Shown: positions 7,813 through 59,030, counted from the first letter of the stretch. The stretch: DNA of 64,000 nucleotides from Alphaproteobacteria bacterium (GCA_015062385.1 SUUT01000002.1:72229-136228), one strand, 5' to 3'. Numbers and translations: made by a program. Notes: generated by a model not told the origin, from the sequence alone.

Positions 7813-8015
7813 TTTTTTCTCCTTTCAGCCATAAAAGAGTATAAGAAGACATACAGATAAAATCAAGTATTCTTTTTATGGGGATTTACAAACATTTTTA
7901 TTGTTGCTTTTTGAATGATATAGAAACATGATGCTTTCAGTTGTTTCGGACTTTTTTTGTTTTTTGCATTTGTAGGGCTTTTTTATTCCAACAACTTGAG
8001 TCCTTGTTGCTCTAT

Positions 8016-8056
8016 CGTCACCCCGTACTCCGATACGGGGTCTTGTTGCGATAATG
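8016..8056 (-). repeat. Single degenerate CGTC-type REP-like palindrome related to the 199-bp repeat unit
   Basis: Minus strand reads cattatcgcaacaagaccccgtatcggagtacggggtgacg, versus repeat unit cattatcgtgacgagactccgtgtcggggcacggagtgacg. Confidence 0.7.
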
Positions 8057-8362
8057 GCAGTACATATTCTCAAAAAAAATAAATAAAAAATAGGGAAAAG
8101 AAAAAGTGAACAACAGGAAAAGGGGCATAAACGAACGTATAACGATAATAAAGGAGTACGGGGAGGGGATAAGGATAAGGAAAAAGAGGGTATTTAGAGT
8201 AAAAATAAACGAAAAAGAGAGGTAAAAAAACAGCAGGGGATAAACGAGAAGAAAAATACCTGTAAAAAATCGTATAAAATATTGAAAAGAAAGGAAAAAA
8301 GACTTGATTTTTTTGAAGAAAAAGGGTAAATTGAGGTGTAACCAAAAATAAATGGAGGAAAA

Positions 8363-8731
8363 ATGAAGAAAATATTGTTAGTAATGGCTCTTTCAATGGT
8401 GTTGCCAAGTGTGGCTTTGGCTGCTTGTGAGGGGGGCGAAGAAATTACCGGAAAAAACGGTCAAAAATACTGTGTTAGTAATCAAACGATGAATTGGTGG
8501 AGTGCGTTTGCATGGTGTAAAGCAAATGGTCTTCATTTGGCAACGTTAGATGAAGCATGTAATAACCAAGCTTGGTCAGGTGGTTGTCCAAATATAAATG
8601 TAGGTATAAATAAATGGGCATGGACGGCAATCGCATCGGGGGACAGTGCCGCCTATGCCGTTAATCTTCTCCATCGTGGTAATGTGTCCACCTACGCACG
8701 CACCGACAACTACTACGCCTTATGTTTATAA
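8363..8731 (+). CDS. DGR target protein: small secreted C-type-lectin-fold protein with C-terminal variable region
   Basis: Sec signal MKKILLVMALSMVLPSVALA; CLec-like MNWWSAFAWCKANGLHLA...WAWT...YALCL; 3' end is the VR matching the TR. Confidence 0.92.
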   Translation: MKKILLVMALSMVLPSVALAACEGGEEITGKNGQKYCVSNQTMNWWSAFAWCKANGLHLATLDEACNNQAWSGGCPNINVGINKWAWTAIASGDSAAYAVNLLHRGNVSTYARTDNYYALCL

Positions 8732-8744
8732 CCCCGCTTTTAAA
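8644..8744 (+). repeat. DGR variable repeat (VR) plus IMH
   Basis: Aligns to the reverse complement of 11240-11337. 14 substitutions, all at TR adenines, plus one 3-nt insertion. Ends in TAACCCCGCTTTTAAA (IMH) versus TAACCCCGCCTTTAAA in TR (IMH*). Confidence 0.96.
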
Positions 8745-8763
8745 CCACTACTTAAAAGAGTTT

Positions 8764-8793
8764 AAAATCCGCCTGATTGGGCGGATTTTTTTT
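8764..8793 (+). terminator. Hairpin after VR (intrinsic terminator and/or DGR target-recognition hairpin)
   Basis: AAAATCCGCC-tgattg-GGCGGATTTT followed by a T run, 20 nt after the IMH. Confidence 0.75.
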
Positions 8794-8972
8794 GTCCCTT
8801 TTATTAAAAAAAAGGGACAGGCAACAAAAGCCGACTCTCCCCACACGGGGACCGTGTGGGGAAAAAAATAAAAGCAAGGTATTTTGAAAATTTATGACAA
8901 GACGACGGATTTTAATTTTATCAACAAACATCTTTATATATTCCTCAATGACAGCAGGTATTTTATACCTAC

Positions 8973-9753
8973 CGTCATACTGAACTTGTTTCAGATTTGC
9001 AACGGGGGGGATAAATCTTTACATTTACGTCATGCCGGATTCAGTCCGGCATCTCGGGAAGAAGTGGCAGGAATGATGAGCCATTATCGTGACGCGACTC
9101 CGTGTCGGGGCACGGAGTGATGGTAGGACTAAAAATCGGAACAAGCCCGAAGTGACGTTTTCACTATCCATCGTCATGCTGAACTTGTTTCAGATTCGCA
9201 GCGGGGGGGATAAATCTTTACGTTTACGTCATGCCGGATTCAGTCCGGCATCTCGGGAAGAAGCGGCAGGAACGCTGTGCTATTATCGTGACGAGACTCC
9301 GTGTCGGGGCACGGAGTGACGGTAGGACTAAAAACCGGAACAAGCCCTGAGTGACGTTTTCACTATCCATCGTCATACTGAACTTGTTTCAGATTCGCAT
9401 CGGGGGGGGATAAATCTTTACATTTACGTCATGCCGGATTCAGTCCGGCATCTCGGGAAGAAGTGGCAGGAACGCTGTGCTATTATCATGACGAGACTCC
9501 GTGTCGGGGCACGGAGTGACGGTAGGACTAAAAATCGGAACAAGCCCGAAGTGACGTTTTCACTATCCATCGTCATACTGAACTTGTTTCAGATTCGCAA
9601 CGGGGGGGATAAATCTTTACATTTACGTCATGCCGGATTCAGTCCGGCATCTCGGGAAGAAGTGGCAGGAATGATGAGCCATTATCGTGACGAGACTCCG
9701 TGTCGGGGCACGGAGTGACGGTAGGACTAAAAATCGGAACAAGCCCGAAGTGA
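8973..9753. repeat. Tandem array of about 4 copies of a 199-200 bp unit built from CGTC-type REP-like palindromes
   Basis: Units start at 8973, 9172, 9371 and 9571. Each has CGTCAT(A/G)CTGAACTTGTTTCAG, CGTCATGCCGGATTCAGTCCGGCATCTC and GACTCCGTGTCGGGGCACGGAGTGA. Confidence 0.95.
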
Positions 9754-9911
9754 TGGTGGAACTAAAAAGGGTATGAAGTGACGAAAAAAATAAAAACAAG
9801 GCAGGGAGTGACGGAGCAGATAAAAAGGGTTTGGGATGATGAAGAAGATAAAAAGGACGCAGGGATGTTACTTAAAAATATAGATGATTGTCACGGCAAA
9901 GGTAAAAAGAA

Positions 9912-11225
9912 TCAATATTTATTTGCAGTGTGACAGATATTTTTTTTATTGTGTCGATTTTTTCTTTTGATATCGGGACGAGCAAAAGAAGTTAAGCGTT
10001 GTTGTTTTTTGAGTTTCAGCTTGTTATTCAGGATAGGGTCAACGGAAACTTTTGTAAAGTTCATATCTGCCGAAAATACTTCCCGAATTTCGGAACAAAG
10101 CATATTCCATGCCTTTAATTTAACTCGCCAACAATTAAAATGACGCAAAATGCCAAAATAAGAATTAAGTGTTGAGCGTGTTTTTTCAATTAATATTGTT
10201 TTGCTTTTGTGTGACATTGGTTGTTTCCATTCCTGATTTAAACGTTCTATTCTTTGGTAAAAAGTTTTTTGTAATCGTTTTGACGGATAGATACGATTGG
10301 GCAAAATATAGGCTCCGGTAAAGGAAAATCCTTTGGCATAATGTTGCAATGACACTTTTTTCGGATGAATGGTTAAATGCAATTCGGATTTTAAATAGTC
10401 AGTGATTTGTTGTTTGACCCGATGTAAAAAATCTTTATCCGGATGAATAAAAATCAAGTCATCAACATAACGGGCATAAAACAAATTCGCATCTAATGAG
10501 GTGGCATAATAATCAAAATCGTTCAAATAAAAATTGGCAAAAATCTGACTGGTTAAGTTGCCGATAGGCAATCCGCAATTTGTATTGGCAAAAAACAAAC
10601 TTTTTGATTGTGGTAATTCCGCCCAGTCTTCTATCGGTGTTTGATAATTGCAGTGACGAATAGGGTTGTCCGATAAAATTTCTTTCAAAAGATATAAAAT
10701 CTGTTCTTTGTTTGTGTGATGATAGTGCGTATTGACCAGCGTTTGGATTTTATTGAACAAAATGGTTTTATCAATGTGAAAGAAAAATCCCTGAATATCC
10801 AACCGCAATACAAAACAATCTTGTGTAAAATGGTTCGAACACGCTTGAAGCATTTCATAAACGGAACGAATGCCAAATAGTGTTCCTTTTCCGGCCCGAC
10901 AACTGTAAGAATGTTCGTAAAAAACATTTTCAAACAATCGAAGCAGTTTACCGATAACCAAATGATGAACAATCCTGTCCCGAAAGTTTGCCGCAAACAC
11001 TTCTCTCAGGACAGGATGCCTGACAATAAAGGCATTAGACGGGGCAATATGATATGTATGTGCCGTGATGTCTTGCCATAAGTTAATCAGATTTTGCTCA
11101 TAGTTTGCTTCAAACTTTAATGCTGCCATGCTGTGACGTTTATGTCTTCTGCAATCAAAATAGGCTTGAAACACTTCTTCCAAAGTAATATCCGATAATA
11201 AGTGATAAAAAGTAAGTTGTTCCAT
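9912..11225 (-). CDS. DGR reverse transcriptase
   Basis: REVFAANFRDRIVHH, LDIQGFF, GLPIGNLTSQ (the SQ variant typical of DGR RTs), RYVDD; adjacent TR and avd. Confidence 0.96.
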   Translation of the reverse strand: MEQLTFYHLLSDITLEEVFQAYFDCRRHKRHSMAALKFEANYEQNLINLWQDITAHTYHIAPSNAFIVRHPVLREVFAANFRDRIVHHLVIGKLLRLFENVFYEHSYSCRAGKGTLFGIRSVYEMLQACSNHFTQDCFVLRLDIQGFFFHIDKTILFNKIQTLVNTHYHHTNKEQILYLLKEILSDNPIRHCNYQTPIEDWAELPQSKSLFFANTNCGLPIGNLTSQIFANFYLNDFDYYATSLDANLFYARYVDDLIFIHPDKDFLHRVKQQITDYLKSELHLTIHPKKVSLQHYAKGFSFTGAYILPNRIYPSKRLQKTFYQRIERLNQEWKQPMSHKSKTILIEKTRSTLNSYFGILRHFNCWRVKLKAWNMLCSEIREVFSADMNFTKVSVDPILNNKLKLKKQQRLTSFARPDIKRKNRHNKKNICHTANKY

Positions 11226-11239
11226 AGTGACTTTTTTAT

Positions 11240-11337
11240 TTTAAAGGCGGGGTTATAAACATAAGGCGTTGTTGTTGTTGGTTCGTGTGTTTGTGTTCAC
11301 ATTACCATTATTGAGATTAACGTTATAGGCGGCACTG
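11240..11337 (-). ncRNA. DGR template repeat (TR)
   Basis: AAC/AAT-rich (in VR frame SAAYNVNLNNGNVNTNTRTNNNNALCL*), located between avd and RT, homologous to VR 8644-8744. Confidence 0.96.
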
Positions 11338-11458
11338 CACCGCTATAAAGTTGGAGGATTACCGCCTCCACGGGTAGTCAACACTGTTTTATATACCAAA
11401 CAAACGTTCGGTGATTGACCCTTTTAAAATAAAACACTTGCTCGCTCAAGGTAACGAT

Positions 11459-11845
11459 TTATTCATTCTCCTTGATTCCGGCACTTGTTTTTAACTGTTG
11501 CTTTCTCCTTTCCGCTTTGTACCAAGCACTTGCTTGGGAGGTAATTGATTCCATTGTTTGTGCCAAATAGGCTTGTGCCCGACAACTGATTAAGTTTAAA
11601 TCTGCACATAGTCTTAGGCAAACCCGTGTCTTTTCCAGTTGAAACATAAAGGTGTTGATGTGTTCCGATTTGTCTTCGCTGTGGTTTGCTCGTGATATTA
11701 TGGCACATAGTTCTAAGGCACTGTCGTTAAGCGTGTTCCCCAATGTATATTTATGTTCCCGTGAAAATTTTGTCGTGTACTGATGTATATCCCGTATCAG
11801 TTGATACGTTGCTATGTATATCGGTAATTTATCACTGCGTGTCAT
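11459..11845 (-). CDS. avd: DGR accessory variability determinant (Avd, four-helix bundle)
   Basis: LPIYIATYQL...KFSREHKYTLG...RVCLRLCADLNLIS...QASAW. Start set at ATG 11845, with a GGAG RBS overlapping the end of the upstream pilin-like gene. Confidence 0.9.
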   Translation of the reverse strand: MTRSDKLPIYIATYQLIRDIHQYTTKFSREHKYTLGNTLNDSALELCAIISRANHSEDKSEHINTFMFQLEKTRVCLRLCADLNLISCRAQAYLAQTMESITSQASAWYKAERRKQQLKTSAGIKENE

Positions 11846-11853
11846 AAAATGGT

Positions 11854-13635
11854 TTACTCCACAACAGGGCATTCGCCCAAATCATTTAAGTTAAAGTACA
11901 TATCCAAACAAACGCCCCACAACGGATTACTGCCTTTGGCATCAACCGTATCGGTACAGCCTTTTGATTTAAAGTTCATATAACAATATTGTTTTCGAGG
12001 GCAATCTGTTTGAACGGATAACATTTTTTCCAAATCAGGCATTTCCATTTCACAAGACGGATTTTTATTATTCATATCGGCACAAGCCCCGTAAATAATA
12101 CCCGTATAATTAGCACCGGCTGCTCCGGTACATGTTTCTGTTGTGAATGACAGATAACAATATTGACCTTTGGGACAATCGGATATGGATTGTACCATTT
12201 CTTGTGCATCGGGTAAATTAAGAGAGCAGGATGGATTTTTGTTATCCATAAAGGCACATACTCCATGAAGTGTTCCTGTGTGGTTTGCACCGGCGGCAGA
12301 GGTACACGTATTGTTTTTAAATGACAAATAACAATACTGACCATTCGGACACCCTTTGCTTTCTTTGACCATTTCTCCCGAAGATGGCATATCCGTTGAG
12401 CAAGAGGGATTTTTATTGTTCATATCGGAACAAACACCATAAATCGTTCCCGTATGGTTTGCTCCGGCAGAACTCGTACAAGAATCGTTTTTAAATGACA
12501 GATAGCAATATTGTCCGCTAGGGCATCCGTTAGATTGTGTCACCATATCCCCCTCAGAAGCCTTTTGAACGGCACAGGAAGCGTTTTTATTGTTCATATC
12601 GGTACAAACCCCATAAATGGTCTCTGCCCCCGTTGCAGACACGCTGGAACTGCAATCTGACGTTTTAAATGATAAATAACAATATTGTCCACTGGGGCAA
12701 GCAGTTCCGATAGTCATATTAAGTGTTTCTCCGTCTGATGCCAATCCGTTTGTATAAGAGCAATTTGTAGTCAATGTCATTGTATCTGATGAAACAGTAA
12801 AAGCACAATTTGTATGCATACCCATTGTTTCATCCGAAACTTCATAAGAACAATTTGTACTTAACGTCATTGTTTCATCGGATATCCGATAGGAACAGCC
12901 GGCTTTTCCTTTCATTTCGGCATTTTCAAAGCTGTATTTGCAAAAACCATCCGATTCGGGACATTCATCAACATTTTGTCCGCAAATTGTATTGCCTCCA
13001 CAGCACCAACGCCGTTCTCCGGACCAGCATTCACTTTCATTTTCGGCATCACAAATCGGATTGCAAAATGTGCGGGATTCGTTGGGTTCTTTTCCGACAG
13101 GACATTCATAACAAGTCCCCGTATTGGCATTGCAGTATCCGCCTTCCGATTCAACACATTCTTCGTTTGTTTCACAATCTTTACCGGGGGCACGTGTGCC
13201 GTTAAAGGCAAAAATAATATCCATTGGTTCCGGTGTACAACTTGTTACGGCACCGATCGTTGTTTCTTCATGTTCAATTTCTTGATAAAAAGATAATTGT
13301 TCATTGTTGCCCAGTTGCATAATCAGTTGGCACATTTCATTATCTATATTTTCAACAAGAACAAAGGTATCGCCGTCTTCATCTTTTCCGGTAAACATGT
13401 TGTATCCGCATTTGGGGGTAAAATCAACCGGTGTCCAATTGGTTTCTGCCTCGTTAACCCCTTGTGCATTGGCATAGGCGATATGTGCTTCTTGGATTAA
13501 TAAATTAGCGGTATATTTTTTCATCGCATAGCGATATCCTAATATCCCGCAGACAGATAAAATACCGATAATGGCTAAAACCCCTAGAATTTCTACCATA
13601 CTTCGTCCGGCTTGTGCGTTCTTGTATTTTTTCAT
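11854..13635 (-). CDS. Type IV pilin-like N-terminus, Cys-rich repeat surface protein (first gene of the DGR operon)
   Basis: Prepilin-like AG|RSMVEILGVLAIIGILSV; five ~58-aa CPxGQYCYLSF...YGVCxDMNNKNPSC repeats. Confidence 0.85.
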   Translation of the reverse strand: MKKYKNAQAGRSMVEILGVLAIIGILSVCGILGYRYAMKKYTANLLIQEAHIAYANAQGVNEAETNWTPVDFTPKCGYNMFTGKDEDGDTFVLVENIDNEMCQLIMQLGNNEQLSFYQEIEHEETTIGAVTSCTPEPMDIIFAFNGTRAPGKDCETNEECVESEGGYCNANTGTCYECPVGKEPNESRTFCNPICDAENESECWSGERRWCCGGNTICGQNVDECPESDGFCKYSFENAEMKGKAGCSYRISDETMTLSTNCSYEVSDETMGMHTNCAFTVSSDTMTLTTNCSYTNGLASDGETLNMTIGTACPSGQYCYLSFKTSDCSSSVSATGAETIYGVCTDMNNKNASCAVQKASEGDMVTQSNGCPSGQYCYLSFKNDSCTSSAGANHTGTIYGVCSDMNNKNPSCSTDMPSSGEMVKESKGCPNGQYCYLSFKNNTCTSAAGANHTGTLHGVCAFMDNKNPSCSLNLPDAQEMVQSISDCPKGQYCYLSFTTETCTGAAGANYTGIIYGACADMNNKNPSCEMEMPDLEKMLSVQTDCPRKQYCYMNFKSKGCTDTVDAKGSNPLWGVCLDMYFNLNDLGECPVVE

Positions 13636-13667
13636 ATTTTCTCCATAAGTCTTGTTGCATATTAATG

Positions 13668-13826
13668 AGTGTAATAAAAGGTACGTATAATTGCAACATT
13701 TTTTTTCACATTTTTGAATTTTTTTTGATTTTTACTAACTAATTCAATAAAAACAATAATTTTTCATTTTTGAAAAAAGTCGATTTTTGAGATTCGAAGC
13801 GGGAAAAAAAGGTACGTTTTTGTGCA
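13668..13826 (-). promoter_or_regulatory. Putative invertible promoter, copy 1, ON orientation for pilin-avd-TR-RT
   Basis: IR cores AAAAGGTAC (13676-13684) and GTACGTTTT (13812-13820); interior 13685-13811 = 127 bp. Minus strand reads TTGCAA (13696-13691), 17 bp, TACACT (13673-13668). Confidence 0.85.
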
Positions 13827-13923: not shown

Positions 13924-14012
13924 GTTAATATGAACTTGTTTCAGATTCTTGGGAAAAACCGGCACAAACGATGTCCCATTATCGTCATGAGACTCCGATT
14001 TTGGGCATGGGA
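13924..14012 (+). repeat. Degenerate remnant of the REP-like repeat unit
   Basis: tgaacttgtttcagatt...cattatcgtcatgagactccgattttgggcatgg resembles the unit at 8973-9753. Confidence 0.65.
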
Positions 14013-14069
14013 TAAAAGAAGAAATACAATAAAGGGGAATGTTTTCTCGCTAAACTGTCAATATACAAC

Positions 14070-14097
14070 AATCCCCCGATTGGGCGGTCGGGGGATT
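14070..14097. terminator. Hairpin terminator after aas
   Basis: AATCCCCCGAT...GTCGGGGGATT. Confidence 0.7.
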
Positions 14098-14102
14098 AAA
14101 TT

Positions 14103-17100
14103 TTATTCGGTTACCAATTTTTTGGCTGTTTGATAATCAAACTTGCCTGTTCCTAACACTGGCGGTTGTTTCATATAAATAACTTTTTTCGGTACCCATA
14201 ATTCAGATAAACCTGTCTTTTTAAAATATGTTTGAATTTCTTTTGTTGATGCATTCTCTGCTGCCGTTACTAAAATCAATTGTTCGCCTTTTTTTGCATC
14301 GGGCAAGGTAATAATACCTTGTGTGATATTCGGATACATTTTTTCCAAAGCTTGTTCAACGGCTGTTAAAGATACCATTTCGCCGGCAATTTTGGCAAAA
14401 CGTTTGGCTCGTCCTTGAATGGAAATAAAATCATTTTCATCCAAAGAAACAATATCCCCTGTATTGTACCAACCATTTTTTGTCGGTTGCAAAACATTTG
14501 GTTTTTCGGCTTTCATATATCCTAACATAACATTATCGCCTTTTACCCACAGTTCACCACCGGTTTCAATACCTTCAATTGGTTTAATTTTCATTTCCAT
14601 CCCCGGTAATAAACGACCAACTGTTCCGTATTTTAGATACATAGGCGTATTTAAAGAAATAACGGGTGCAGTTTCTGTTGCCCCATAGCCTTCCAAAATC
14701 CGAACCCCGAATTTTTTCATCCATAAATCAGCAGTTGTTTCTTTTAGTTTTTCACCACCGACAATCGCATATTTTACACCAAAGAAATCAAACGGATTTG
14801 CCATGCGACCATAGCCGGAAAGGAATGTATCCGTTCCACAAATAATGGTTGCGTTTGAATCGTATGTTAATTCAGGCACAATTCGATAATGCAGTGGGGA
14901 AGGGTAATAAAATGTTCTAATACCCGATAGTGTTGTCATAATAGAACCGACACACAAACCGAAAGAGTGGAACATCGGTAACGCATTGAAAAATGTATCC
15001 GATGCGTTGACGCTTAAAACAGATAAAACCTGATTGCGATTTGCCTGAATGTTTTTGTGTGACAGTAAAACAGCTTTCGGCATTCCTTCTGAACCGGAGG
15101 TAAATAAAACAACTGCCGGTTTCTGCGGGTCGTTTTGCGGACGTGTCTGTATGAAAGCATCCAGTATGCCTTTTAATTTTGATCCCAAAGTGATTTGAGT
15201 AGCAAAATCTTCCATATAAACAACGTTAAATTCGGTTTTTAAGGCTTCTTCTAAATGTTCCAGATGTCCCAGTTGAATGAATTGACGAGAGGTCAGAATT
15301 GTTTTTAATCCGATTGTTTTTCCACTGGAAACAAGTTGTGTCGGTCCCAGTGAAAAGTTCATCATAGCAGGAACTTTGTCAATGCTTTGTAAGGCAAAGA
15401 ATGAAACCAGATTGACCAATGAGTTTGGCAATAATAAACCGATTTTGTCTTCATTCGGAAATGCTTTTTGAAAAGCTCTTCCCAAAACATAAGCCTTTGT
15501 TATCATTTTTTTGTAAGTCAACGGAACACGTTTAATATCTTCGGCAATTTTATGTTTTTTACCATATGTGTGCATGGCATCCAGTAATGAATTAAACAAG
15601 TGTTCATTTAAATCTGATGTTTGATACATCATATCGGTCATAATATCATATAATTGTTTAGAAATAAATGTTCTTCTATCTCGTCCGAAACAATCTTCCG
15701 GCACGTTTAAAACGGTGGGTTTAAGCAAGGTTAACGAAATATGCGGGAACAGACGGGTTTTATATTTTTTACCCATATACGAAAATTTTGAAAATTGAGC
15801 ACCTTTAATCCGAATTGGTACAATTTTGGCTTCGGCTTTGGCGGCAACCACACCGGCCCCCTCATAAATTTTCATTAATCCGCCGGAGGTAGTAATACGT
15901 CCTTCCGGAAAAATCATCACTTTTTTGTCTTTTTTCACTTCTTCAATCAATGACCGAATGGCCATCGGATTGGTCGGATCTAACGGATATAAATCAACCA
16001 GAACGGAAAATAGGCGAATATACCATTTTTTTGCCCATTCTGTATTAATGGCAAATGTGATTTTTTCAGGCATATAAGCAGCAACTAAAATCCCGTCTAA
16101 TAATGAACAATGATTGGCAATTAATAAAACCCGTTTACCGGCTTTGTGGAAATTTTGGATGTTATAAATCCGAATGTGAAAAAGCGGGCTTAATATAATC
16201 CGTAAAACAGATTTTAATGTTTCATGAGACAATAATTGCATAATGTAAACAGAAACAATCAAGCTCATAACGGCAATAAACAGGAAAAGTGAGGGAATGG
16301 AAAAGCCCATACTTAACAAACCGGCTGAAATGATTGAAATAACAGCCATTCCGAACGAATTAACAATATTGTTGCCGGCAATAACAGATGCCGTACAAGA
16401 TTTAGGAGCGTACGTTTGAATAAAAGCATTAAGTGGAACAATATATAATCCACCAAAAAATGCCATAGCAAACATACAAACGGATAACGCAATACCTCCA
16501 TTAAGCAAGAAAGCAACTAATCCGAAACTTTCGCTCGGGGCTTGATAATTTTTGGTTAAGAAATAAAAGATTAATCCGCAAACGGCCATAGCCAAAGATG
16601 TTAATGGAACATAGACGGCAGAAACAACACCTTTCAACAACTTATTGCAACTGACAGACCCGACACCGACTCCGATAGAGAATAATAATAAAAAGAAAGT
16701 AATCACATGTTGTTTGACGTTTAATACCTGACTGCATAGTGGGAAAATTTGAGTTAGGATTAAAGCTCCAACCGTCCAAAACCAAGTTGCTCCTAAAATG
16801 GATTTCCAAACAATGGGATAAGTATGAATAAGTTTTAAATTGCTGACTGTTTCGGCAAAAATATTTTTACGAATCGTTAAGGTTGGACGTGGAGCTTTTG
16901 CCGTTGGAATGTATCGGGCAGAAATGTATCCGATAACCGAACAGATAATTAACAGGACTATTGCAGTATTGATGTTTAAAATCGTGCCTAAAACAGCTCC
17001 TAAAATAATGGAAACATAAGTTGAAGCTTCAATATAACCATTTCCTGCAAGTAATTCATTTTTCTTTAATAATTGTGGTAAAAGAGCGTATTTTATTGGG

Positions 17101-17459
17101 CCAAAAAAGGCAGACTGGGTTCCCATTAAAAAGAGTAAAACAATTAAAAGTGTTAGGCTTTTGGTATAAAAAACAATGCCGGTTAAAATCATTAAAACCA
17201 ATTCAGTAATTTTTAAAAAACGAGCAATTTTATCCCGATTGTATTTATCGGCAATTTGGCCGGCCGTAGCTGAAAATAAAAAGAAGGGCAGAATAAATAA
17301 TCCGGCAACAACAGCCGATAAAATATCGGATTGTTCCGTCATTTTATAGGCAATCATAACCAATAACATATTTTTGAATAAATTATCGTTAAATGCCCCA
17401 AAAAACTGCACAATTAACAAAGGTAAAAAACGTTTTGTTTTTAAAATCGGATTAATCAT
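14103..17459 (-). CDS. aas: MFS (LplT-like) / acyltransferase / acyl-ACP synthetase fusion (Aas-like)
   Basis: N-terminal MFS QFFGAFNDNLFK; NHCSLLD and FPEG acyltransferase motifs; FTSGSEGMPK and EGYGATE AMP-binding motifs. Confidence 0.92.
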   Translation of the reverse strand: MINPILKTKRFLPLLIVQFFGAFNDNLFKNMLLVMIAYKMTEQSDILSAVVAGLFILPFFLFSATAGQIADKYNRDKIARFLKITELVLMILTGIVFYTKSLTLLIVLLFLMGTQSAFFGPIKYALLPQLLKKNELLAGNGYIEASTYVSIILGAVLGTILNINTAIVLLIICSVIGYISARYIPTAKAPRPTLTIRKNIFAETVSNLKLIHTYPIVWKSILGATWFWTVGALILTQIFPLCSQVLNVKQHVITFFLLLFSIGVGVGSVSCNKLLKGVVSAVYVPLTSLAMAVCGLIFYFLTKNYQAPSESFGLVAFLLNGGIALSVCMFAMAFFGGLYIVPLNAFIQTYAPKSCTASVIAGNNIVNSFGMAVISIISAGLLSMGFSIPSLFLFIAVMSLIVSVYIMQLLSHETLKSVLRIILSPLFHIRIYNIQNFHKAGKRVLLIANHCSLLDGILVAAYMPEKITFAINTEWAKKWYIRLFSVLVDLYPLDPTNPMAIRSLIEEVKKDKKVMIFPEGRITTSGGLMKIYEGAGVVAAKAEAKIVPIRIKGAQFSKFSYMGKKYKTRLFPHISLTLLKPTVLNVPEDCFGRDRRTFISKQLYDIMTDMMYQTSDLNEHLFNSLLDAMHTYGKKHKIAEDIKRVPLTYKKMITKAYVLGRAFQKAFPNEDKIGLLLPNSLVNLVSFFALQSIDKVPAMMNFSLGPTQLVSSGKTIGLKTILTSRQFIQLGHLEHLEEALKTEFNVVYMEDFATQITLGSKLKGILDAFIQTRPQNDPQKPAVVLFTSGSEGMPKAVLLSHKNIQANRNQVLSVLSVNASDTFFNALPMFHSFGLCVGSIMTTLSGIRTFYYPSPLHYRIVPELTYDSNATIICGTDTFLSGYGRMANPFDFFGVKYAIVGGEKLKETTADLWMKKFGVRILEGYGATETAPVISLNTPMYLKYGTVGRLLPGMEMKIKPIEGIETGGELWVKGDNVMLGYMKAEKPNVLQPTKNGWYNTGDIVSLDENDFISIQGRAKRFAKIAGEMVSLTAVEQALEKMYPNITQGIITLPDAKKGEQLILVTAAENASTKEIQTYFKKTGLSELWVPKKVIYMKQPPVLGTGKFDYQTAKKLVTE

Positions 17460-21391: not shown

Positions 21392-21552
21392 ACTATAAAA
21401 AAAGGTACGTTAAAACGCAACATTTTTTTCACTTTTTGAGATTTTTTTTTAATTTGAAATAAATTATTATTTTAAAAGGATTTTAGTTTATTTTTATAAA
21501 TCAACGTGTTTTGCAAAAAGCATCTGCAAAAAAAGATACCTTTTTTTATACT
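21392..21552. promoter_or_regulatory. Putative invertible promoter, copy 2, pointing away from the autotransporter (OFF)
   Basis: Perfect 14-bp IR TATAAAAAAAGGTA (21394-21407) / TACCTTTTTTTATA (21537-21550). Interior homologous to copy 1 (127 bp, 21409-21535). Inversion gives TTGCGT-17-TATACT on the + strand. Confidence 0.8.
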
Positions 21553-21794: not shown

Positions 21795-24245
21795 ATGAGG
21801 TATTCAAATACAGCAATTACAGAACTTTCAAAAAAATATCGTACAATTTTGAAAAAATGTGCCATTTTAAATGCAGTTGCATTATTGGCTTTATCCACAC
21901 CGGCTATGGCAGCTCAATATGGTATTGCCGTGACAGAAAGTAGAGTATACACAGAATCTGCTTTTACAGGTGATGATGTTGGTATTTATTCGGGTAGTGG
22001 TGCAACTGGTACATTTACAGCCGAAGATATTACTGTTACAGACAGTTTAAGAGGGATTCTTGCAAAAGGAACAGAATCAAAAATTGTTATTGGTAGTGCA
22101 AGTGATTATACCAATAGTTTAACCATTTCTAATAACAATACAGAATCCGGAATTCATGATCGAGGTATTCGTGCCGAAAATGGTGGAACAGTTGAAGTTT
22201 ATACGGATAATTTAACAATTACCGGTACAGATACCTCTTATGCATTACATGCAAGAGGTGGGGACGATTCTTTAACAACAAAAATTGTAGTGAATGCTAA
22301 AAATGTAGATATTACAAGCAAAGATTCTCCAGCAGTTAATGCAAATAATACAGGAATCAGACCGGAAGAAACTTATGCAACAACACAAGTTGATATTGTA
22401 GCAGATAATATTAATATTTCTTCTGATACAACGGCAGTTTCTGCTATGAGCCAAGGAATTGTTAATATTACGGGTAACACAGTTTTAAATGCTGAAAACG
22501 CTATTTTAGGTCGTGGTGATGCACAAATTAACATTAACACAACCGACTTGACTAAAACGTTGGTAATGAATGGTAATATTGATTTTGATTATGATAAAAA
22601 AACATCAGACTCTGCTATTAATGCTTTCATTAATGTTAATTTGAATGGTACTTCTTCTTCATGGACGGGAAATACTGTTAAAAGTTGGGGTGATGATGAA
22701 CCAGAAGATCCTAATAAGTTAATTGTTTCTGATGCAACAGTTACACTTAATGACGGGGCAACTTGGAATGCAACAAAAATTACAGCAACTGATACAATGA
22801 AACAAACCGCATTAAACTACTTAATTGTTAAAAAAGGTACAATTAATGTTGCAGACGGGGCCACTGCTTTGGTTGGCGATTTAACGGTAACGGACTTAAC
22901 GTTAAATGGTATGGTTGAAGCTGATACAGCTACATTTGAATCCGGTTCAAAATTAACAACTGCTTTGGATGATACTGTTAAAATTAAAGCTAAAAAAGTT
23001 ACAATTGGTGATGGTTCCACATTGAACTTAATCATTGATGGTGCCGTTGAAGAAAAATCATATAACTTTATTGATTCCGCAGATATTACAGGAGCCTTTA
23101 CAATTGCTGATAACGGTTTATATTCTTTCACACAAGATGAAACTGGTACTATTACGGCAAGTCAGAAAAATGCTGATGAAATTGCAGCAGATACAGGGGC
23201 TTCTGCTCAGGAAACAAGTGCTTTATTAGCAATGATTAATGCGGATGGATCAAGTACGGAACAAGGTAATGCATTAGCTTCTGCTTTGTCAACGGCAATG
23301 CAATCCGGTGATGCAGCAGTTGCTGTTCAGGCTGCAAAAGAAGCTGCTCCGACAACAGCACAAGTTGTGACAGGTTTAACCAAAGAAACTGCCAATACAA
23401 TTGCACAAGTTTCTACGACTCGTTTAGATTCTATTAAAGGAACAAGCGGTGGTGATACGGTAACAGGGGCCGGTTTGTGGGTTCAAGGATTATATAACCA
23501 TACAAAACAAAGCACAACATCTTCATCTGATGGATTCAAAGCAAATTCACGTGGTTTGGCTGTTGGTGCCGATGCAGAATTATCCGAAACAACAACGTTA
23601 GGTTTGGGGTATGGTTATATGGAAACAGATGCTGATACTACCGGTCGTGATATTACAGTTGATAGTCATAATGTTTTTGTTTACGGAGAATATCAACCGT
23701 CTGAATGGTATGTTAATGCTGTTTTAAATTATGGGTTCTCTAAATACAAGGAAGATAAGGCTCCATTGGGTGTTGCATTAAAGAGCAAGTATGATGTTAA
23801 ATCATATGGAGCAAGCATTATGACCGGTTATGATTTTGATAACGGTATTACACCGGAAGCAGGCTTGCGTTATTTGATTGTTGATGCTGAATCATACAAT
23901 GATGGTGCACAAGACATTAATTCTAAAAAGAATGATATCTTAACAGCCGTTGCCGGTGTTAAATATACAGCTAATGTCAAAGCTGACAAAGCAATTTTAA
24001 AACCGACTGTTCGTTTAGCCGCAACATACGACATTGTTTCTGATAGTGATGAAGCAAGTGTTCAAGTTTTGGGTGGTGGTAATTATACCATTAACGGACA
24101 GCGTTTACATCGCTTTGGTGTAGAAGCCGGAGCAGGTGTGACAGCAACTGTTAACAACTGGGATTTCACATTAGAATATAACGGTGCTTTCAGAGAAGAT
24201 TATCGCTCACAAGGGGGTATCGTCAGAGCAAGATACAATTTCTAA
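21795..24245 (+). CDS. Autotransporter (type Va) with beta-helical passenger
   Basis: Extended signal peptide; Thr/Asn/Gly-rich passenger; C-terminal barrel starting LWVQGLYNH and ending GIVRARYNF. Confidence 0.92.
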   Translation: MRYSNTAITELSKKYRTILKKCAILNAVALLALSTPAMAAQYGIAVTESRVYTESAFTGDDVGIYSGSGATGTFTAEDITVTDSLRGILAKGTESKIVIGSASDYTNSLTISNNNTESGIHDRGIRAENGGTVEVYTDNLTITGTDTSYALHARGGDDSLTTKIVVNAKNVDITSKDSPAVNANNTGIRPEETYATTQVDIVADNINISSDTTAVSAMSQGIVNITGNTVLNAENAILGRGDAQININTTDLTKTLVMNGNIDFDYDKKTSDSAINAFINVNLNGTSSSWTGNTVKSWGDDEPEDPNKLIVSDATVTLNDGATWNATKITATDTMKQTALNYLIVKKGTINVADGATALVGDLTVTDLTLNGMVEADTATFESGSKLTTALDDTVKIKAKKVTIGDGSTLNLIIDGAVEEKSYNFIDSADITGAFTIADNGLYSFTQDETGTITASQKNADEIAADTGASAQETSALLAMINADGSSTEQGNALASALSTAMQSGDAAVAVQAAKEAAPTTAQVVTGLTKETANTIAQVSTTRLDSIKGTSGGDTVTGAGLWVQGLYNHTKQSTTSSSDGFKANSRGLAVGADAELSETTTLGLGYGYMETDADTTGRDITVDSHNVFVYGEYQPSEWYVNAVLNYGFSKYKEDKAPLGVALKSKYDVKSYGASIMTGYDFDNGITPEAGLRYLIVDAESYNDGAQDINSKKNDILTAVAGVKYTANVKADKAILKPTVRLAATYDIVSDSDEASVQVLGGGNYTINGQRLHRFGVEAGAGVTATVNNWDFTLEYNGAFREDYRSQGGIVRARYNF

Positions 24246-36427: not shown

Positions 36428-36586
36428 AGTATAAAAAAAGGGACCTTTTTTTCCCGCTTCGAATCGGCAAAATCGGATTTTGTAAAAAATAAAAGATTAT
36501 TGTTTGAGTTGAATAAGTTATCTAAAATCAAAAAAAATGCCAAAATGTGAAAAAAAGTGTTGCATTTATACGTCCCTTTTATTGCA
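36428..36586. promoter_or_regulatory. Putative invertible promoter, copy 3 (OFF)
   Basis: IR AAAAGGGAC (36436-36444) / GTCCCTTTT (36572-36580). Interior 36445-36571 = 127 bp, the reverse-complement homolog of copy 1. Inversion gives TTGCAT-17-TATACT toward the pilin gene. Confidence 0.87.
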
Positions 36587-57376: not shown

Positions 57377-58762
57377 CTACTCTGTTAAGCAATAATCCAC
57401 AACCTTATGAAGTTTAAAATTCATACTGCCGCAGTTATTATCACATTCATTATCCCAAAATTGAATGGTTATATCTGCCAAGCCATTAAATGTAAAATAT
57501 TTAATCGGTTGATTTCTTAATGCATTTGTTACTTGTTTAGTTGTTCCAACATTATATCCCTCACCATTTCCCACAAAATCAGAATCTTTATTAATAATAT
57601 ATCCTAAATTTTTTGTACCCTCAAATACATATGTTGCAAAACCGACCCGCTTCGTCTTACAATTATAATAATGGTATCCATCAACCCATTCAAAATAATA
57701 TGTCCCTTTTAGTTTACCTAAGTTATTTGTTGTAATACGGCACTCCCAAACAGAACTATTAATTCCGGTTGAAGCAATATCCATTTCAACCACATCTTCT
57801 GTTTTACAAACACATTCGCCATTTTGATTGGGTTCTAATTCATATTTTGATGTATCACAATAACACACACATGTTTCCCCATCCTGAATCTGTCCCGTTG
57901 GACAAGATGTTGCACACGGCGTACACATTTTTGTTATTGCATCCCAATGTATTTTATCTGTCGGACAAGATTCACACATATTGTTTGTTCCGCATACCGG
58001 AGTCGGATTAGCACAATCATCATTCGTTAAGCATTCCACACACTTTTCATCTTTCCAAATCGGAGAGAAATCCGGACAGCGACACATTACTTCATCTTCA
58101 AACCATTCTTTGGGAGGATAACATCGTTCACAATTATCCCCGAACTCATATTCATGCCGACAAATACATCCGTATGTACCGTCTTCTTTTTGTCGCCATA
58201 CCATTTTATCGGGGCAGGTTTCCGGTTCAATATTTGGATTATCTATATCCGGCAGATTCGAACTCCCGCTTCCGCTATTTCCGCCCCCATTTCCTCCGCC
58301 AAAGTGAGAACCGGATTCAAATGTCGGTGTTGCATCAAAGGAAAATACCATGCTTGTTTTATTGTTTGGGTTTCCACACGTTTTTGTTAAAATTGAAATA
58401 CCCATATCATTCAATATACCTTCCTTTTGAAAGAGCTTTTCACAAATTTTATGTGTCATCTTAAATGCCGTTACCTGATAATTGCCGTCAACCAATTTAA
58501 CCATAGACTTTTTATCATCCGGCGTATATTCGGAAAGTGCTGACTTAATAAATCGATTGACTTCTAAGGCATGTGAAGCCCGAGAATCTGTTTGTGCCAA
58601 TGTTTTGGCTTTTCCGAGAACATCCTGCACTTTGCCGGCTTGATAAGCCGTTAACGCATATTGATAGGTTGCAACACCCCCAACGGATAATACCCCGATA
58701 ATTGCCAGAACCCCCAGCATTTCCACCATTGAACGACCAAGTTCATTTATTTTAGTTTGCAT
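57377..58762 (-). CDS. Type IV pilin-like N-terminus, Cys-rich stalk, distinct C-terminal domain
   Basis: LG|RSMVEMLGVLAIIGVLSVGG; first ~220 aa highly similar to the 34176-36389 protein, C-terminus unrelated. Confidence 0.85.
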   Translation of the reverse strand: MQTKINELGRSMVEMLGVLAIIGVLSVGGVATYQYALTAYQAGKVQDVLGKAKTLAQTDSRASHALEVNRFIKSALSEYTPDDKKSMVKLVDGNYQVTAFKMTHKICEKLFQKEGILNDMGISILTKTCGNPNNKTSMVFSFDATPTFESGSHFGGGNGGGNSGSGSSNLPDIDNPNIEPETCPDKMVWRQKEDGTYGCICRHEYEFGDNCERCYPPKEWFEDEVMCRCPDFSPIWKDEKCVECLTNDDCANPTPVCGTNNMCESCPTDKIHWDAITKMCTPCATSCPTGQIQDGETCVCYCDTSKYELEPNQNGECVCKTEDVVEMDIASTGINSSVWECRITTNNLGKLKGTYYFEWVDGYHYYNCKTKRVGFATYVFEGTKNLGYIINKDSDFVGNGEGYNVGTTKQVTNALRNQPIKYFTFNGLADITIQFWDNECDNNCGSMNFKLHKVVDYCLTE

Positions 58763-58798: not shown

Positions 58799-58957
58799 AT
58801 TATAAAAAAAGGGACCTTTTTTTCCCTATTCAAAATAGAAAAATCTGATTTTTACAGAAATGAAAGATTATTGTTTTAATTTAATAAGTTAATTAAAATC
58901 AAAAAAAATGCTAAAAAGTGAAAAAAATTGTTGCATTTATACGTCCCTTTTATTGCA
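58799..58957. promoter_or_regulatory. Putative invertible promoter, copy 4 (OFF)
   Basis: IR AAAAGGGAC (58807-58815) / GTCCCTTTT (58943-58951). Interior 58816-58942 = 127 bp. Inversion gives TTGCAT-17-TATAAT toward the pilin gene. Confidence 0.87.
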
Positions 58958-59030
58958 ACCATTCAAATATTACGAAAAGTGAAGAAACAGAAAATTCTTC
59001 AAACTTTATTCTTTTAATCTAAATAGAAAA

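What the first reader, a model, noticed from the sequence alone, without database searches (positions are those of the whole stretch)
9912..13826. DGR machinery placed under an invertible promoter: a possible on/off switch for hypermutation
Seen: pilin-like gene (13635-11854), avd (starts 8 nt after the pilin stop, RBS overlapping the pilin 3' end), TR and RT are co-oriented and tightly packed. I see no terminator between the pilin gene and avd. The evident upstream promoter is inverton copy 1 in the ON state (TTGCAA-17-TACACT). Inference: Avd, TR-RNA and RT are made only in cells with the switch ON, coupling adenine mutagenesis of the lectin-like target to expression of one pilin-like protein. 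I am not aware of a described DGR with this regulatory layout, but I cannot search the literature here.
Basis: partly seen in the sequence, partly recalled or inferred. Interest (0 to 1): 0.92.

Follow-up and report, generated by a model that had tools for sequence, protein, structure and literature searches.

The report
Hypermutation cassette behind an invertible promoter
A gut bacterium keeps the machinery that deliberately mutates its sugar-binding surface proteins directly behind a pilin-like gene whose promoter sits on a flippable piece of DNA, so targeted hypermutation is probably itself switched on and off.

Summary
On the minus strand lie a 145-bp invertible segment (13676-13820), a pilin-like gene (13635-11854), avd 8 nt after its stop, the TR and the RT. 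No terminator-like site lies between the pilin-like gene and avd. The segment is one of 110 copies in this 1.81-Mb uncultured gut alphaproteobacterial genome. 82 face one way and 4, including this one, face the other. Only the minority orientation brings the segment's TTGCAA to 17 nt from a fixed TACACT. Copy 1 is seen flipped in an independent metagenome (run X8) and, less cleanly, in a sister genome.

The DGR is real. It has Avd, an RT, adenine-specific TR/VR differences, a C-type-lectin-like target and at least four VR copies.

The layout pilin-like gene, then avd, TR, RT with a gap of -14 to +20 nt recurs in 10 related loci. No conserved internal promoter was found. In another species of the genus a different DGR also sits behind a minority-orientation inverton.

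Co-transcription, and which orientation is ON, remain inferred. No usable RNA data were available. I found no paper describing a DGR under an inverton. Verdict: the inverton is real and the regulatory coupling is likely but unproven, a new variant of known kinds.

The parts
14069..14098 (-). Intrinsic-terminator-like hairpin ending the upstream gene (MFS/acyltransferase/AMP-binding fusion, 14103-17459). It insulates the inverton from read-through.
   Evidence: 11-12 bp stem, 6 GC pairs; Pfam for the upstream gene
13676..13820 (-). Invertible segment of inverton copy 1. It carries the -35 hexamer and an A-rich upstream tract. It is bounded by short imperfect inverted repeats AAAA(C/G)GTAC (about 13804-13821 and 13673-13690).
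   Evidence: It is inverted relative to copies 2 and 3 while the coding N-termini are direct repeats. It belongs to the 110-copy family. The same 145 nt are seen on the opposite strand, joined to the unique left flank, in run X8 record 19 with 2 mismatches.
13668..13696 (-). Split promoter formed only in this orientation: -35 TTGCAA (13696-13691, inside the segment), a 17-nt spacer containing the proximal IR, and -10 TACACT (13673-13668, in fixed DNA).
   Evidence: 8 of 12 matches. All 4 copies in this orientation have TTGCA[AT]-17-TACACT. G043 has TTGCAA-17-TACAAT in the same arrangement.
11854..13635 (-). Pilin-like gene, 593 aa. It has a prepilin-type N-terminus (G|RSMVEILGVLAIIGIL) and cysteine-rich repeats with a 58-aa period. 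It has no VR.
   Evidence: There is only a weak sub-threshold match to a prepilin-dependent pilin model (E 0.0064) and no Pfam family.
11459..11845 (-). avd, the DGR accessory variability determinant, 128 aa. It starts 8 nt after the pilin-like stop.
   Evidence: Pfam bAvd 1.5e-11; NCBIfam DivGenRetAVD 1.2e-14, below that model's cut-off; spacing
11240..11346 (-). Template repeat (TR)
   Evidence: Inverted-repeat pairs with 8635-8744. Adenine-specific differences to four VR copies.
9912..11225 (-). DGR reverse transcriptase, 437 aa
   Evidence: RVT_1 5e-17. It is the only RT homologue of this kind in the genome. IGNLTSQ and YVDD are read from the sequence. A 242-nt contig of RNA run X20 covers 10981-11222.
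8966..9901 (.). Four tandem copies of a unit of about 199 nt between the RT and the target. Each copy has a terminator-like hairpin on the minus strand. Function unknown; it probably ends the operon.
8363..8731 (+). Local DGR target, 122 aa. It is a lipoprotein-like protein (signal ...VALAAC) with a C-type-lectin-like fold, convergent with the cassette. A possible own promoter TTGATT-17-TAAATT lies at 8305-8334.
   Evidence: AlphaFold2 model with pLDDT 87; fold hits to C-type-lectin-like domains
8635..8744 (+). Variable repeat (VR) with an IMH-like 3' end (CCCCGCTTTT against CCCCGCCTTT in the TR). A hairpin follows at 8764-8789.
   Evidence: 15 adenine differences, a 3-nt insertion, a C>T at the IMH; hairpin; protein variation confined to residues 99-120
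36435..36586 (-). Inverton copy 2, in the majority orientation. It lies upstream of a 737-aa pilin-like gene (34176-36389).
58806..58968 (-). Inverton copy 3, in the majority orientation. It lies upstream of a 461-aa pilin-like gene (57377-58762).

Best explanation
A site-specific recombinase, not yet identified, flips a 145-bp segment (13676-13820) upstream of a pilin-like gene. The segment carries an A-rich tract and a -35 hexamer. The -10 hexamer sits in the fixed DNA just outside the proximal inverted repeat. A sigma-70-type promoter (TTGCAA-17-TACACT) therefore exists only in the orientation seen in this window, which I call ON.

Transcription from it runs through the pilin-like gene and, with no terminator and an 8-nt gap, into avd, the TR and the RT. 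Synthesis of the DGR core (Avd, TR-RNA, RT) is then largely confined to cells with the switch ON.

In those cells adenine-mutagenised cDNA of the TR replaces the VRs of small C-type-lectin-like lipoproteins. These are the local convergent target and at least three remote ones. The remote targets lie in other pilin-like operons that have their own invertons.

What is shown: the inverton and both of its states, the DGR parts, the adenine-specific TR/VR pattern, and the conserved operon-like packing. What is inferred: which state is ON, co-transcription, the absence of an independent promoter, and the identity of the recombinase.
For: **Inverton.**
- There are 110 copies of at least 100 nt in the 1.81-Mb genome. 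Relative to an adjacent pilin-like gene, 82 are in one orientation and 4 in the other, including copy 1. The remaining 24 have no pilin motif within 200 nt; I did not tabulate how many of these sit at contig ends.
- Copy 1 is inverted relative to copies 2 and 3, while the coding starts are direct repeats.
- In run X8 one 7779-nt contig (depth 7.6) joins the unique left flank 14046-13843 to 13676-13820 on the opposite strand, with 2 mismatches in 145 nt. Runs X7 and X16 have the window's orientation.
- In sister genome G036 a contig carries the pilin593 start and fixed flank at 99% identity, followed by the segment in the opposite orientation.

**Promoter.**
- All 4 minority copies read TTGCA[AT]-17-TACACT. 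The -35 is at least 90% conserved in the 82 majority copies, and the key -10 positions are conserved in the fixed flank.
- The -35 end of the segment is the part conserved across genera.
- tRNA genes in the window use TTGACA-17-TATAAG and TTGATT-17-CATAAA, so sigma-70-type promoters are in use here.
- Relatives have fixed promoters at the same place: TTGACG-17-TAAAAT in L020 and L021.

**Operon.**
- The gap is 8 nt and the RBS lies in the pilin 3' end. There is no terminator-like site. A terminator follows the upstream gene.
- A pilin-like ORF lies -14 to +20 nt before avd in G000, L018, L019, L003/L045, L020, L021, L022, L024, L025 and L070.
- No promoter-like site is conserved in the last 350 nt before avd. 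There is none at 8 of 12 or better in L020, L021, L022 and L070.

**Second case.** G043 has a different DGR (RT 45-46% identical). Its pilin-like VR-bearing target, avd, TR and RT follow an inverton with perfect 16-nt IRs in the TTGCAA-17-TACAAT orientation. That orientation is the minority there too: 5 of 26 unique elements against 18 in the other.

**DGR.**
Against: - No transcript evidence was obtained. The only RNA run holding any of the stretch gave one 242-nt contig (10981-11222, depth 3). It says nothing about a start site and could be DNA carry-over.
- The promoter matches only 8 of 12 consensus positions. In this AT-rich DNA every copy, in both orientations and both directions, has some site at 8 of 12 or better, so consensus matching does not discriminate.
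- 31 of 82 majority-orientation copies have GGGAAA-16-TATACT or TATAAT facing the gene. The other state may therefore be leaky rather than silent.
- Promoter-like sites exist on the minus strand inside the pilin-like gene (12744, 12217, 12095). TTGAGC-17-TAAAAG lies between avd and the TR. An independent promoter for avd, the TR or the RT is not excluded.
- The inverted state of copy 1 rests on one contig in one run, plus a G036 contig whose distal flank belongs to another inverton locus. That contig may be chimeric.
- The local VR has a 3-nt insertion relative to the TR.
- No recombinase could be assigned.
Confidence: 0.55

Rival explanations
1. The inverton is real and controls the pilin-like gene, but avd, the TR and the RT also have their own promoter. 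That promoter would lie inside the 3' part of the pilin-like gene or in the avd-TR spacer. The switch would then only modulate DGR expression, or be irrelevant to it.
For: Promoter-like sites lie on the minus strand at 12744, 12217 and 12095. The site at 12095 scores 9 of 12 and lies 250 nt before the avd ATG. TTGAGC-17-TAAAAG is read in the avd-TR spacer. AT-rich DNA offers many weak promoters. In G043 the target-avd gap is 268 nt, enough room for a promoter.
Against: These sites occur at chance frequency: 18 found against 17.4 expected. None is conserved in position among 9 related loci, and four loci have none. The gap before avd is -14 to +20 nt in 10 loci of several genera, which is the signature of a translationally coupled operon.
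Confidence: 0.28
2. The polarity is the reverse. The majority orientation would be ON and the orientation in the window OFF. The DGR-linked pilin operon would then be silenced in this sample, and most pilin-like genes expressed at once.
For: 31 of 82 majority copies have a good -10 (TATACT or TATAAT) with a poor -35 (GGGAAA) facing the gene. No expression data exist.
Against: Only the minority orientation gives a -35 at 17 nt from the conserved -10, with an A-rich tract upstream. Fixed promoters in relatives (G062 L027, and L020/L021) have the same geometry as the minority state. Simultaneous expression of more than 80 paralogous surface proteins is not how phase-variable families usually behave (general knowledge).
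Confidence: 0.12
3. There is no switch at this locus. The opposite orientation of copy 1 would be a fixed ancient rearrangement, and the inverted forms seen elsewhere would be assembly artefacts among more than 100 similar repeats.
For: The inverted form of copy 1 is supported by one contig in X8. The G036 contig has a foreign distal flank.
Against: The X8 contig matches copy 1 at 143 of 145 positions, whereas the nearest other copy in the genome is 88% identical. It is joined to the unique flank. The IR arms of about 10-15 nt are shorter than what I recall to be the 31-letter assembly word of these contigs (k = 31, from memory; one search states only that the run index uses sampled 31-letter words). 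A repeat-induced misjoin is therefore unlikely. Orientation differs among samples of one species: X7 and X16 against X8.
Confidence: 0.04

Closest known systems
Diversity-generating retroelements of the Bordetella phage BPP-1 type (mtd-avd-TR-brt) and the Bacteroides DGRs that diversify type V tip pilins (Macadangdang et al., bioRxiv 10.1101/2024.11.15.621889; passages read)
   Same: It has Avd, a TR and an RT with the IGxxxSQ-like motif. TR/VR differences are adenine-specific. There is an IMH-like 3' end and a C-type-lectin-like variable protein. A gene immediately upstream of avd shares the operon. It is linked to pilus-like surface proteins. The Bacteroides paper reports that DGR activity tracks avd/TR/rt transcript levels.
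   Different: The gene in the upstream 'target' position here is a type-IV-pilin-like protein without a VR. The VRs sit downstream of the RT and at remote loci. The only recognisable operon promoter is assembled by DNA inversion. The Bacteroides paper contains no occurrence of 'invertible', 'inversion' or 'phase-variable'.
Invertible promoters (invertons), such as E. coli fimS and the Bacteroides fragilis capsule/Mpi regulon (recalled; general inverton literature seen only as search listings)
   Same: A short IR-flanked segment upstream of surface-structure genes is found in both orientations. A multi-copy family shares one IR consensus, which implies one global recombinase. Most copies are in one state and few in the other.
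   Different: The promoter is split: the -35 is inside the segment and the -10 outside. fimS carries a whole promoter (recalled). There are about 110 copies in a 1.8-Mb alphaproteobacterial genome. One copy sits in front of a retroelement cassette. The recombinase is not identified.
Multi-target DGRs with remote VRs (a known DGR architecture class; recalled, no paper read for it here)
   Same: One RT and TR serve several VR-bearing paralogues spread over the genome.
   Different: The remote targets each follow a pilin593-like gene that has its own inverton. Expression of each diversified protein is therefore probably phase-variable as well.

Membership tests
Diversity-generating retroelement | Reverse transcriptase of the DGR type | tested here: met
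   RVT_1 5e-17. IGNLTSQ and YVDD are read in the sequence; that these motifs are DGR hallmarks is recalled. No DGR-specific RT model was available. The best NCBIfam hits are group II intron and defence RTs, all below their cut-offs.
Diversity-generating retroelement | Accessory protein Avd next to the RT | tested here: met
   Pfam bAvd 1.5e-11 at 45.1 bits, above the cut-off of 40. NCBIfam DivGenRetAVD 1.2e-14 at 54.5 bits, below its cut-off of 80.
Diversity-generating retroelement | TR/VR pair differing almost only at TR adenines | tested here: met
   Local VR: 15 of 39 aligned TR adenines differ. There are 4 non-adenine substitutions, three at the 5' edge and one at the IMH, plus a 3-nt insertion. 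C10: 7 adenine and 1 non-adenine. C24: 3 and 0. C40: 14 and 7.
Diversity-generating retroelement | IMH at the VR 3' end differing from IMH* in the TR, with a hairpin downstream | tested here: met
   CCCCGCTTTT in the VRs of C9, C6 and C10 against CCCCGCCTTT in the TR. A hairpin lies at 8764-8789, 20 nt after the VR. The role of these features is recalled.
Diversity-generating retroelement | Variable protein with a C-type-lectin fold, VR at the C-terminus | tested here: met
   Model pLDDT 87. The Foldseek top hit is 8oks (E 7e-5, TM 0.56-0.61), followed by many C-type-lectin-like domains. TM scores are modest. There is no Pfam hit.
Diversity-generating retroelement | Ongoing diversification of the VR | tested here: inconclusive
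   The nearest database homologue differs from the window's target at residue 73 and otherwise only within residues 99-120. Contigs C24 and C10 end inside a VR, and the C6 VR holds a run of N. No read-level VR diversity was measured.
Invertible promoter (inverton) | Segment flanked by inverted repeats | tested here: met
   The family consensus is AAAAAGGGAC ... GTCCCTTTT. Copy 1 has AAAA(C/G)GTAC at both ends. The IRs are short (9-10 nt) and imperfect. G043 has perfect 16-nt IRs.
Invertible promoter (inverton) | Both orientations of the same locus observed | tested here: met
   The X8 contig is inverted. X7, X16 and the window are not. The G036 contig is inverted but has a foreign distal flank. 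The evidence comes from assembled contigs, not raw reads.
Invertible promoter (inverton) | Promoter activity dependent on orientation | not testable with these tools
   Only motif geometry is available: TTGCAA-17-TACACT in one state and CGGGAA-17-TACACT in the other. Consensus scanning is not discriminating.
Invertible promoter (inverton) | A cognate site-specific recombinase | tested here: inconclusive
   There are 6 tyrosine and 5 serine recombinase matches in the genome and none in the window. Two small tyrosine recombinases have patchy, HGT-like distributions. Serine recombinases of about 200 aa occur in 21 of 21 genomes of the genus. None could be assigned.
Operon pilin-like gene, avd, TR, RT (co-transcription) | One transcript spanning the pilin-like gene and the DGR core | not testable with these tools
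   Indirect evidence only: the 8-nt gap, no terminator, synteny conserved in 10 loci and no conserved internal promoter. The single RNA contig covers the RT 5' end only.
Type IV pilin / pseudopilin | Prepilin-type N-terminal cleavage/methylation motif with Glu at +5 and a hydrophobic helix | tested here: inconclusive
   G|RSMVEILGVLAIIGIL is read in the sequence. The genome has a prepilin peptidase (PF01478, 55 bits) and three T2SSE ATPase matches. However, there is no Pfam family, and the only model hit is far below its cut-off (16.6 against 138 bits). I therefore call it 'pilin-like', not a shown pilin.

The most novel reading that the evidence does not exclude
This gut alphaproteobacterium runs a two-tier surface-variation system. 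About 100 invertons choose which pilin-like adhesin operons are expressed. A single DGR rewrites the lectin-like partner proteins encoded in at least four of those operons. The DGR core is itself gated by one of the invertons. Targeted hypermutation would then be a reversible, heritable 'mutator phase' held by a subpopulation. Cells could diversify their binding proteins while ON and then freeze a useful variant by flipping OFF. The same linkage in a second species with a different DGR suggests that selection keeps it.
Probability: 0.35. Interest if true: 0.85.

Novelty: new variant of a known kind. Interest (0 to 1): 0.72.

Why it matters
How DGR mutagenesis is regulated is largely unknown. 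The Bacteroides study reports only that activity follows avd/TR/rt transcript levels. A DGR core behind an inverton would be a concrete, testable mechanism: a stochastic, reversible DNA switch deciding which cells hypermutate their ligand-binding proteins. It would join two classic diversity generators, phase variation and retroelement-driven hypermutation, in one circuit. It would also explain how a lineage can both explore variants and stabilise them.

The locus offers direct tests. Long reads could phase switch state with VR haplotypes. Constructs locked in either orientation could be used in reporter assays.

Separately, about 110 invertons in a 1.8-Mb genome is an extreme case of phase-variable surface architecture outside the Bacteroidales.

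Tried and rejected
1. I searched metagenome contigs for the unique fixed flank of copy 1 and found no stretches. The protein-based scan that followed gave only one close locus with upstream flank, L070.

2. Rfam at gathering scores found only two tRNAs in the window. Nothing matched the 199-nt repeats or the inverton.

3. I scanned for consensus promoters to decide ON against OFF. At 8 of 12 or better, all 4 minority and all 82 majority copies have hits in both directions, so the scan does not discriminate.

4. I counted terminator-like hairpins after pilin-like genes genome-wide, to ask whether the lack of one before avd is unusual. My crude finder hit only 27 of 81, which is uninformative.

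5. I tried to assign the invertase by phyletic pattern.
   - The tyrosine recombinase at C12:131553 is 90-96% identical across genera and was not found in G036.
   - The tyrosine recombinase at C12:71102 occurs only in G000, G043 and G065.
   - Serine recombinases are universal in the genus.
   - None could be assigned.

6. RNA evidence: one run (X20) holds a 242-nt piece of the RT 5' end. It gives no information on promoters. The parts without cover say nothing.

7. I considered that the pilin-like gene might be a DGR target. No TR-like repeat lies in it, so I rejected this for this locus. It is true for the G043 and G062 DGRs.

Supplementary files of the papers were not consulted; those of the Bacteroides DGR paper might list promoters or invertons that I could not see.

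Full report
**What is at the locus**

Reading the minus strand from 14100 down to 8300, the order is as follows.
- The end of a large MFS/acyltransferase/AMP-binding gene (Pfam), with a strong terminator-like hairpin at 14098-14069.
- A partial copy of a 199-nt repeat (13931-14029).
- A segment of about 145 bp (13676-13820).
- A 593-aa gene (13635-11854) with a prepilin-like N-terminus (G|RSMVEILGVLAIIGIL) and cysteine-rich 58-aa repeats.
- avd (11845-11459), the TR (about 11346-11240) and the RT (11225-9912).
- Four tandem 199-nt repeats (9901-8966).
- On the other strand, a 122-aa gene (8363-8731) whose 3' end is the VR (8635-8744).

- The pilin-like stop (11856-11854) and the avd ATG (11845) are 8 nt apart.
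- GGAG (11860-11857) lies inside the last pilin codons.
- TTGCAA (13696-13691), a 17-nt spacer and TACACT (13673-13668) are present.
- No terminator-like site lies on the minus strand between the pilin-like gene and avd.
- Avd matches Pfam bAvd at 1.5e-11 and the RT matches RVT_1 at 5e-17.

**The DGR is real**

The genome, 1.81 Mb in 45 contigs, has a single RT and a single avd of this kind. The TR aligns to several VR-like copies.

| VR copy | Adenine differences | Other differences or notes |
|---|---|---|
| Local (C9) | 15 of 39 aligned TR adenines | 3 substitutions at the 5' edge, 1 C>T in the IMH-like end, a 3-nt insertion |
| C10 | 7 | 1 non-adenine |
| C24 | 3 | 0 non-adenine |
| C40 | 14 | 7 non-adenine |
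| C6 | not tallied | interrupted by a run of N |

- Contigs C24 and C10 end inside a VR. That is what population-level VR heterogeneity does to an assembly, but it is indirect evidence.
- The target models with pLDDT 87. Its best structural matches are C-type-lectin-like domains: 8oks at E 7e-5, the Legionella Lcl C-terminal domain and NK-receptor CTLDs. TM scores are modest, about 0.5-0.6.
- The closest database homologue (P0001) matches the window's protein through residue 98 apart from one change at residue 73. From residue 99 to 120, the VR-encoded part, it differs at many positions.

**The upstream element is a genuine inverton and belongs to a very large family**

- Within the window, the 150-160 nt upstream of three pilin-like genes are related. 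Copy 1 is inverted relative to copies 2 and 3, while the coding N-termini are direct repeats.
- Genome-wide, BLAST gave 111 hits, 110 of them at least 100 nt long. 82 are in the copy-2 orientation relative to an adjacent pilin-like gene. 4 are in the copy-1 orientation. 24 have no pilin motif within 200 nt; I did not tabulate how many of those sit at contig ends.
- The consensus shows short IRs, AAAAAGGGAC ... GTCCCTTTT.
- Laying Logan contigs of four runs gave the direct test.
  - Runs X7 and X16 have the window's orientation.
  - In run X8, from a different study, a 7779-nt contig (depth 7.6) runs from the unique left flank (14046-13843) into 13676-13820 on the opposite strand, with only 2 mismatches in 145 nt.
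  - The best other copy in the genome is 88% identical to copy 1, so this is copy 1, inverted in place.
  - The X8 contig that carries the operon stops aligning at 13684, as expected for the flipped state.
- The sister genome G036 (RT 97% identical) has a contig with three parts.
  - The pilin593 start and fixed flank match at 99%.
  - The segment follows in the opposite orientation. It is 89% identical to copy 1 and has the same GTAC core.
  - The distal flank matches another inverton locus. This is either an inter-inverton rearrangement or a chimeric contig.

**Which state is ON (inferred)**

- The promoter is split. The -35 and an A-rich upstream tract lie inside the segment. The -10 lies in the fixed flank just beyond the proximal IR.
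- All four minority-orientation copies read TTGCA[AT]-17-TACACT.
- In the 82 majority copies the same -35 is at least 90% conserved but faces away. The sequence placed 17 nt from the -10 is then CGGGAA.
- The -35 end of the segment is the part conserved across genera.
- tRNA genes in the window have TTGACA-17-TATAAG and TTGATT-17-CATAAA, so this organism uses sigma-70-type promoters.
- Relatives have fixed promoters in the same place with the same geometry: TTGACG-17-TAAAAT in L020 and L021, and TTGCAA-17-TACACT in L027.

Against this reading:
- The motif is only 8 of 12, below the scan's threshold.
- Any copy in any direction has some site at 8 of 12 or better.
- 31 of 82 majority copies have GGGAAA-16-TATACT or TATAAT facing the gene, so the other state may be leaky.

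**Is the DGR core driven by this promoter (inferred, not shown)**

For:
- The gap is 8 nt with an overlapping RBS, and there is no terminator.
- The upstream gene is terminated, so there should be no read-through from above.
- The arrangement is conserved. Among relatives of the same family, 16 of 80 genomes have this RT. A pilin-like ORF ends -14 to +20 nt from the avd start in G000, G036, G034, G042, G048, G047, G018, G010, G027 and metagenome locus L070.
- The prepilin motif was verified in the seven of those loci where the N-terminus is on the contig.
- One relative, G070, instead has a 92-aa ORF 124 nt upstream.
- No promoter-like site is conserved in the last 350 nt before avd. Four loci have none at 8 of 12 or better.

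Against:
- Promoter-like sites occur inside the pilin-like gene at chance frequency, and a weak one lies in the avd-TR spacer.
- The only RNA run gave one 242-nt contig at the RT 5' end, which says nothing about start sites.

**A second, independent case**

- G043 belongs to the same genus and has a different DGR (RT 45-46% identical).
- Its variable protein is itself a 447-aa pilin-like protein with a C-terminal lectin-like VR. It is followed by avd, the TR and the RT.
- The operon starts behind an inverton with perfect 16-nt IRs, TTAAAGGTACGTTTAA / TTAAACGTACCTTTAA. The orientation gives TTGCAA-17-TACAAT.
- Among 26 unique elements examined in that genome, 5 are in this orientation, 18 in the other, and 3 have no pilin motif nearby (two rows were duplicates from overlapping loci).
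- In two species, then, the DGR-linked copy is among the minority state. The sample is small and the genomes are related, so this is a hint, not a test.

- The closest paralogues of the 593-aa protein in this genome lie on C6, C40, C11 and C24.
- On C6 and C40 a small lectin-like gene of the target family follows within 16-34 nt. On C11 the listed target ORF overlaps the pilin-like stop, and on C24 the target starts about 120 nt downstream.
- Three of these targets carry VRs.
- Each paralogue has its own inverton upstream, all in the majority orientation in this assembly.
- The ancestral module is thus inverton, pilin-like gene, lectin-like target. In the window's locus avd-TR-RT sits between the two.
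- In G034 and G042 the target is co-directional after the RT. Here it is convergent, behind the repeat array, with a possible own promoter TTGATT-17-TAAATT.

**Organism and literature**

- Record titles of close loci name uncultured Alphaproteobacteria MAGs from ruminant guts. The runs that hold the locus are gut or faecal metagenomes of animals.
- Full-text searches combined DGR terms with invertible promoter, inverton, phase variation, invertase and DNA inversion. They returned only papers that mention the two topics separately.
  - Searches were seen as listings only.
  - Passages were read.
- The Bacteroides DGR preprint links DGRs to type V pilins and to transcriptional control. It contains none of 'invertible', 'inversion' or 'phase-variable' (passages only; supplements not seen).
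- Searches for inverton + Alphaproteobacteria + pilin and for RF32 + pilin found nothing.
- Papers in subscription journals are not covered by these searches.

**Verdict**

The inverton is real and copy 1 switches.
- The DGR is real and has been active in the species' recent history.
- That the switch gates Avd, TR-RNA and RT synthesis is the best-supported reading (about 0.55), but it is inferred.
- It is a new combination of two known systems. It is worth RNA mapping and long-read tests that phase switch state with VR haplotypes.

Noticed in passing
whole genome G000 (for example window 36435-36586 and 58806-58968): There are about 110 copies of the 150-bp invertible element in a 1.81-Mb genome, nearly all directly upstream of pilin-like genes. 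Many copies sit at contig ends. This is an unusually dense inverton regulon for a small alphaproteobacterial genome.
   Followed up: partly
window 8966-9901; partial copies at 13931-14029 and 8012-8058 (inverted): Four tandem units of about 199 nt lie between the RT and the target. Each unit has several hairpins, including a terminator-like one. Similar arrays occur on C33 (7770-8468), on C40 (126091-126697) and on C10 (294-502), the last just after another VR. There is no Rfam match. Function unknown.
   Followed up: partly
window 8340-8828 against L019 (G034) and L003 (G042): The target gene is convergent with the RT here but co-directional in the 83-84%-identical relatives. Here it is bracketed by inverted partial copies of the 199-nt repeat (8012-8058 against 9080-9126 and 9678-9724). 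The target segment may itself have been inverted, or may be invertible.
   Followed up: partly
L102 (G036:C8:1-1769): This contig joins the DGR-linked pilin start (99% identical) through an opposite-orientation inverton to the distal flank of a different inverton locus (G000 C9:68106-69596, 92-96% identical). It is either recombination between different invertons or an assembly chimera.
   Followed up: partly
window 8668-8700 (VR) against 11300-11320 (TR): The local VR carries a 3-nt insertion relative to the TR, while the remote VRs (C6, C24, C40) are collinear with it. Homologues of the target also differ by single-residue indels inside the VR-encoded part.
   Followed up: no
window 34176-36389 (minus strand): The 737-aa pilin-like protein behind inverton copy 2 contains two internal repeats (34456-34532 and 35281-35357). 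They resemble the conserved WWSA..C core of the DGR target family, so lectin-like domains also occur fused to pilin-like proteins. A 371-aa fused form is on C12:73317-74432.
   Followed up: no
window 21397-21495: A degenerate partial copy of the inverton element (75% identity over about 100 nt) lies upstream of an autotransporter gene (21795-24245; Autotransporter beta-domain 3e-41).
   Followed up: no
G000 C12:131553-132134: A 193-aa tyrosine recombinase is 90-96% identical in genomes of five different genera of the family and is patchily distributed. This looks like recent horizontal transfer of a mobile element rather than a housekeeping invertase.
   Followed up: partly
window 10981-11222: A metatranscriptome run (X20) holds one exact 242-nt contig at depth 3. 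It covers only the 5' end of the RT gene and stops 3 nt inside the ORF, next to the TR. It may be a real transcript or DNA carry-over.
   Followed up: no
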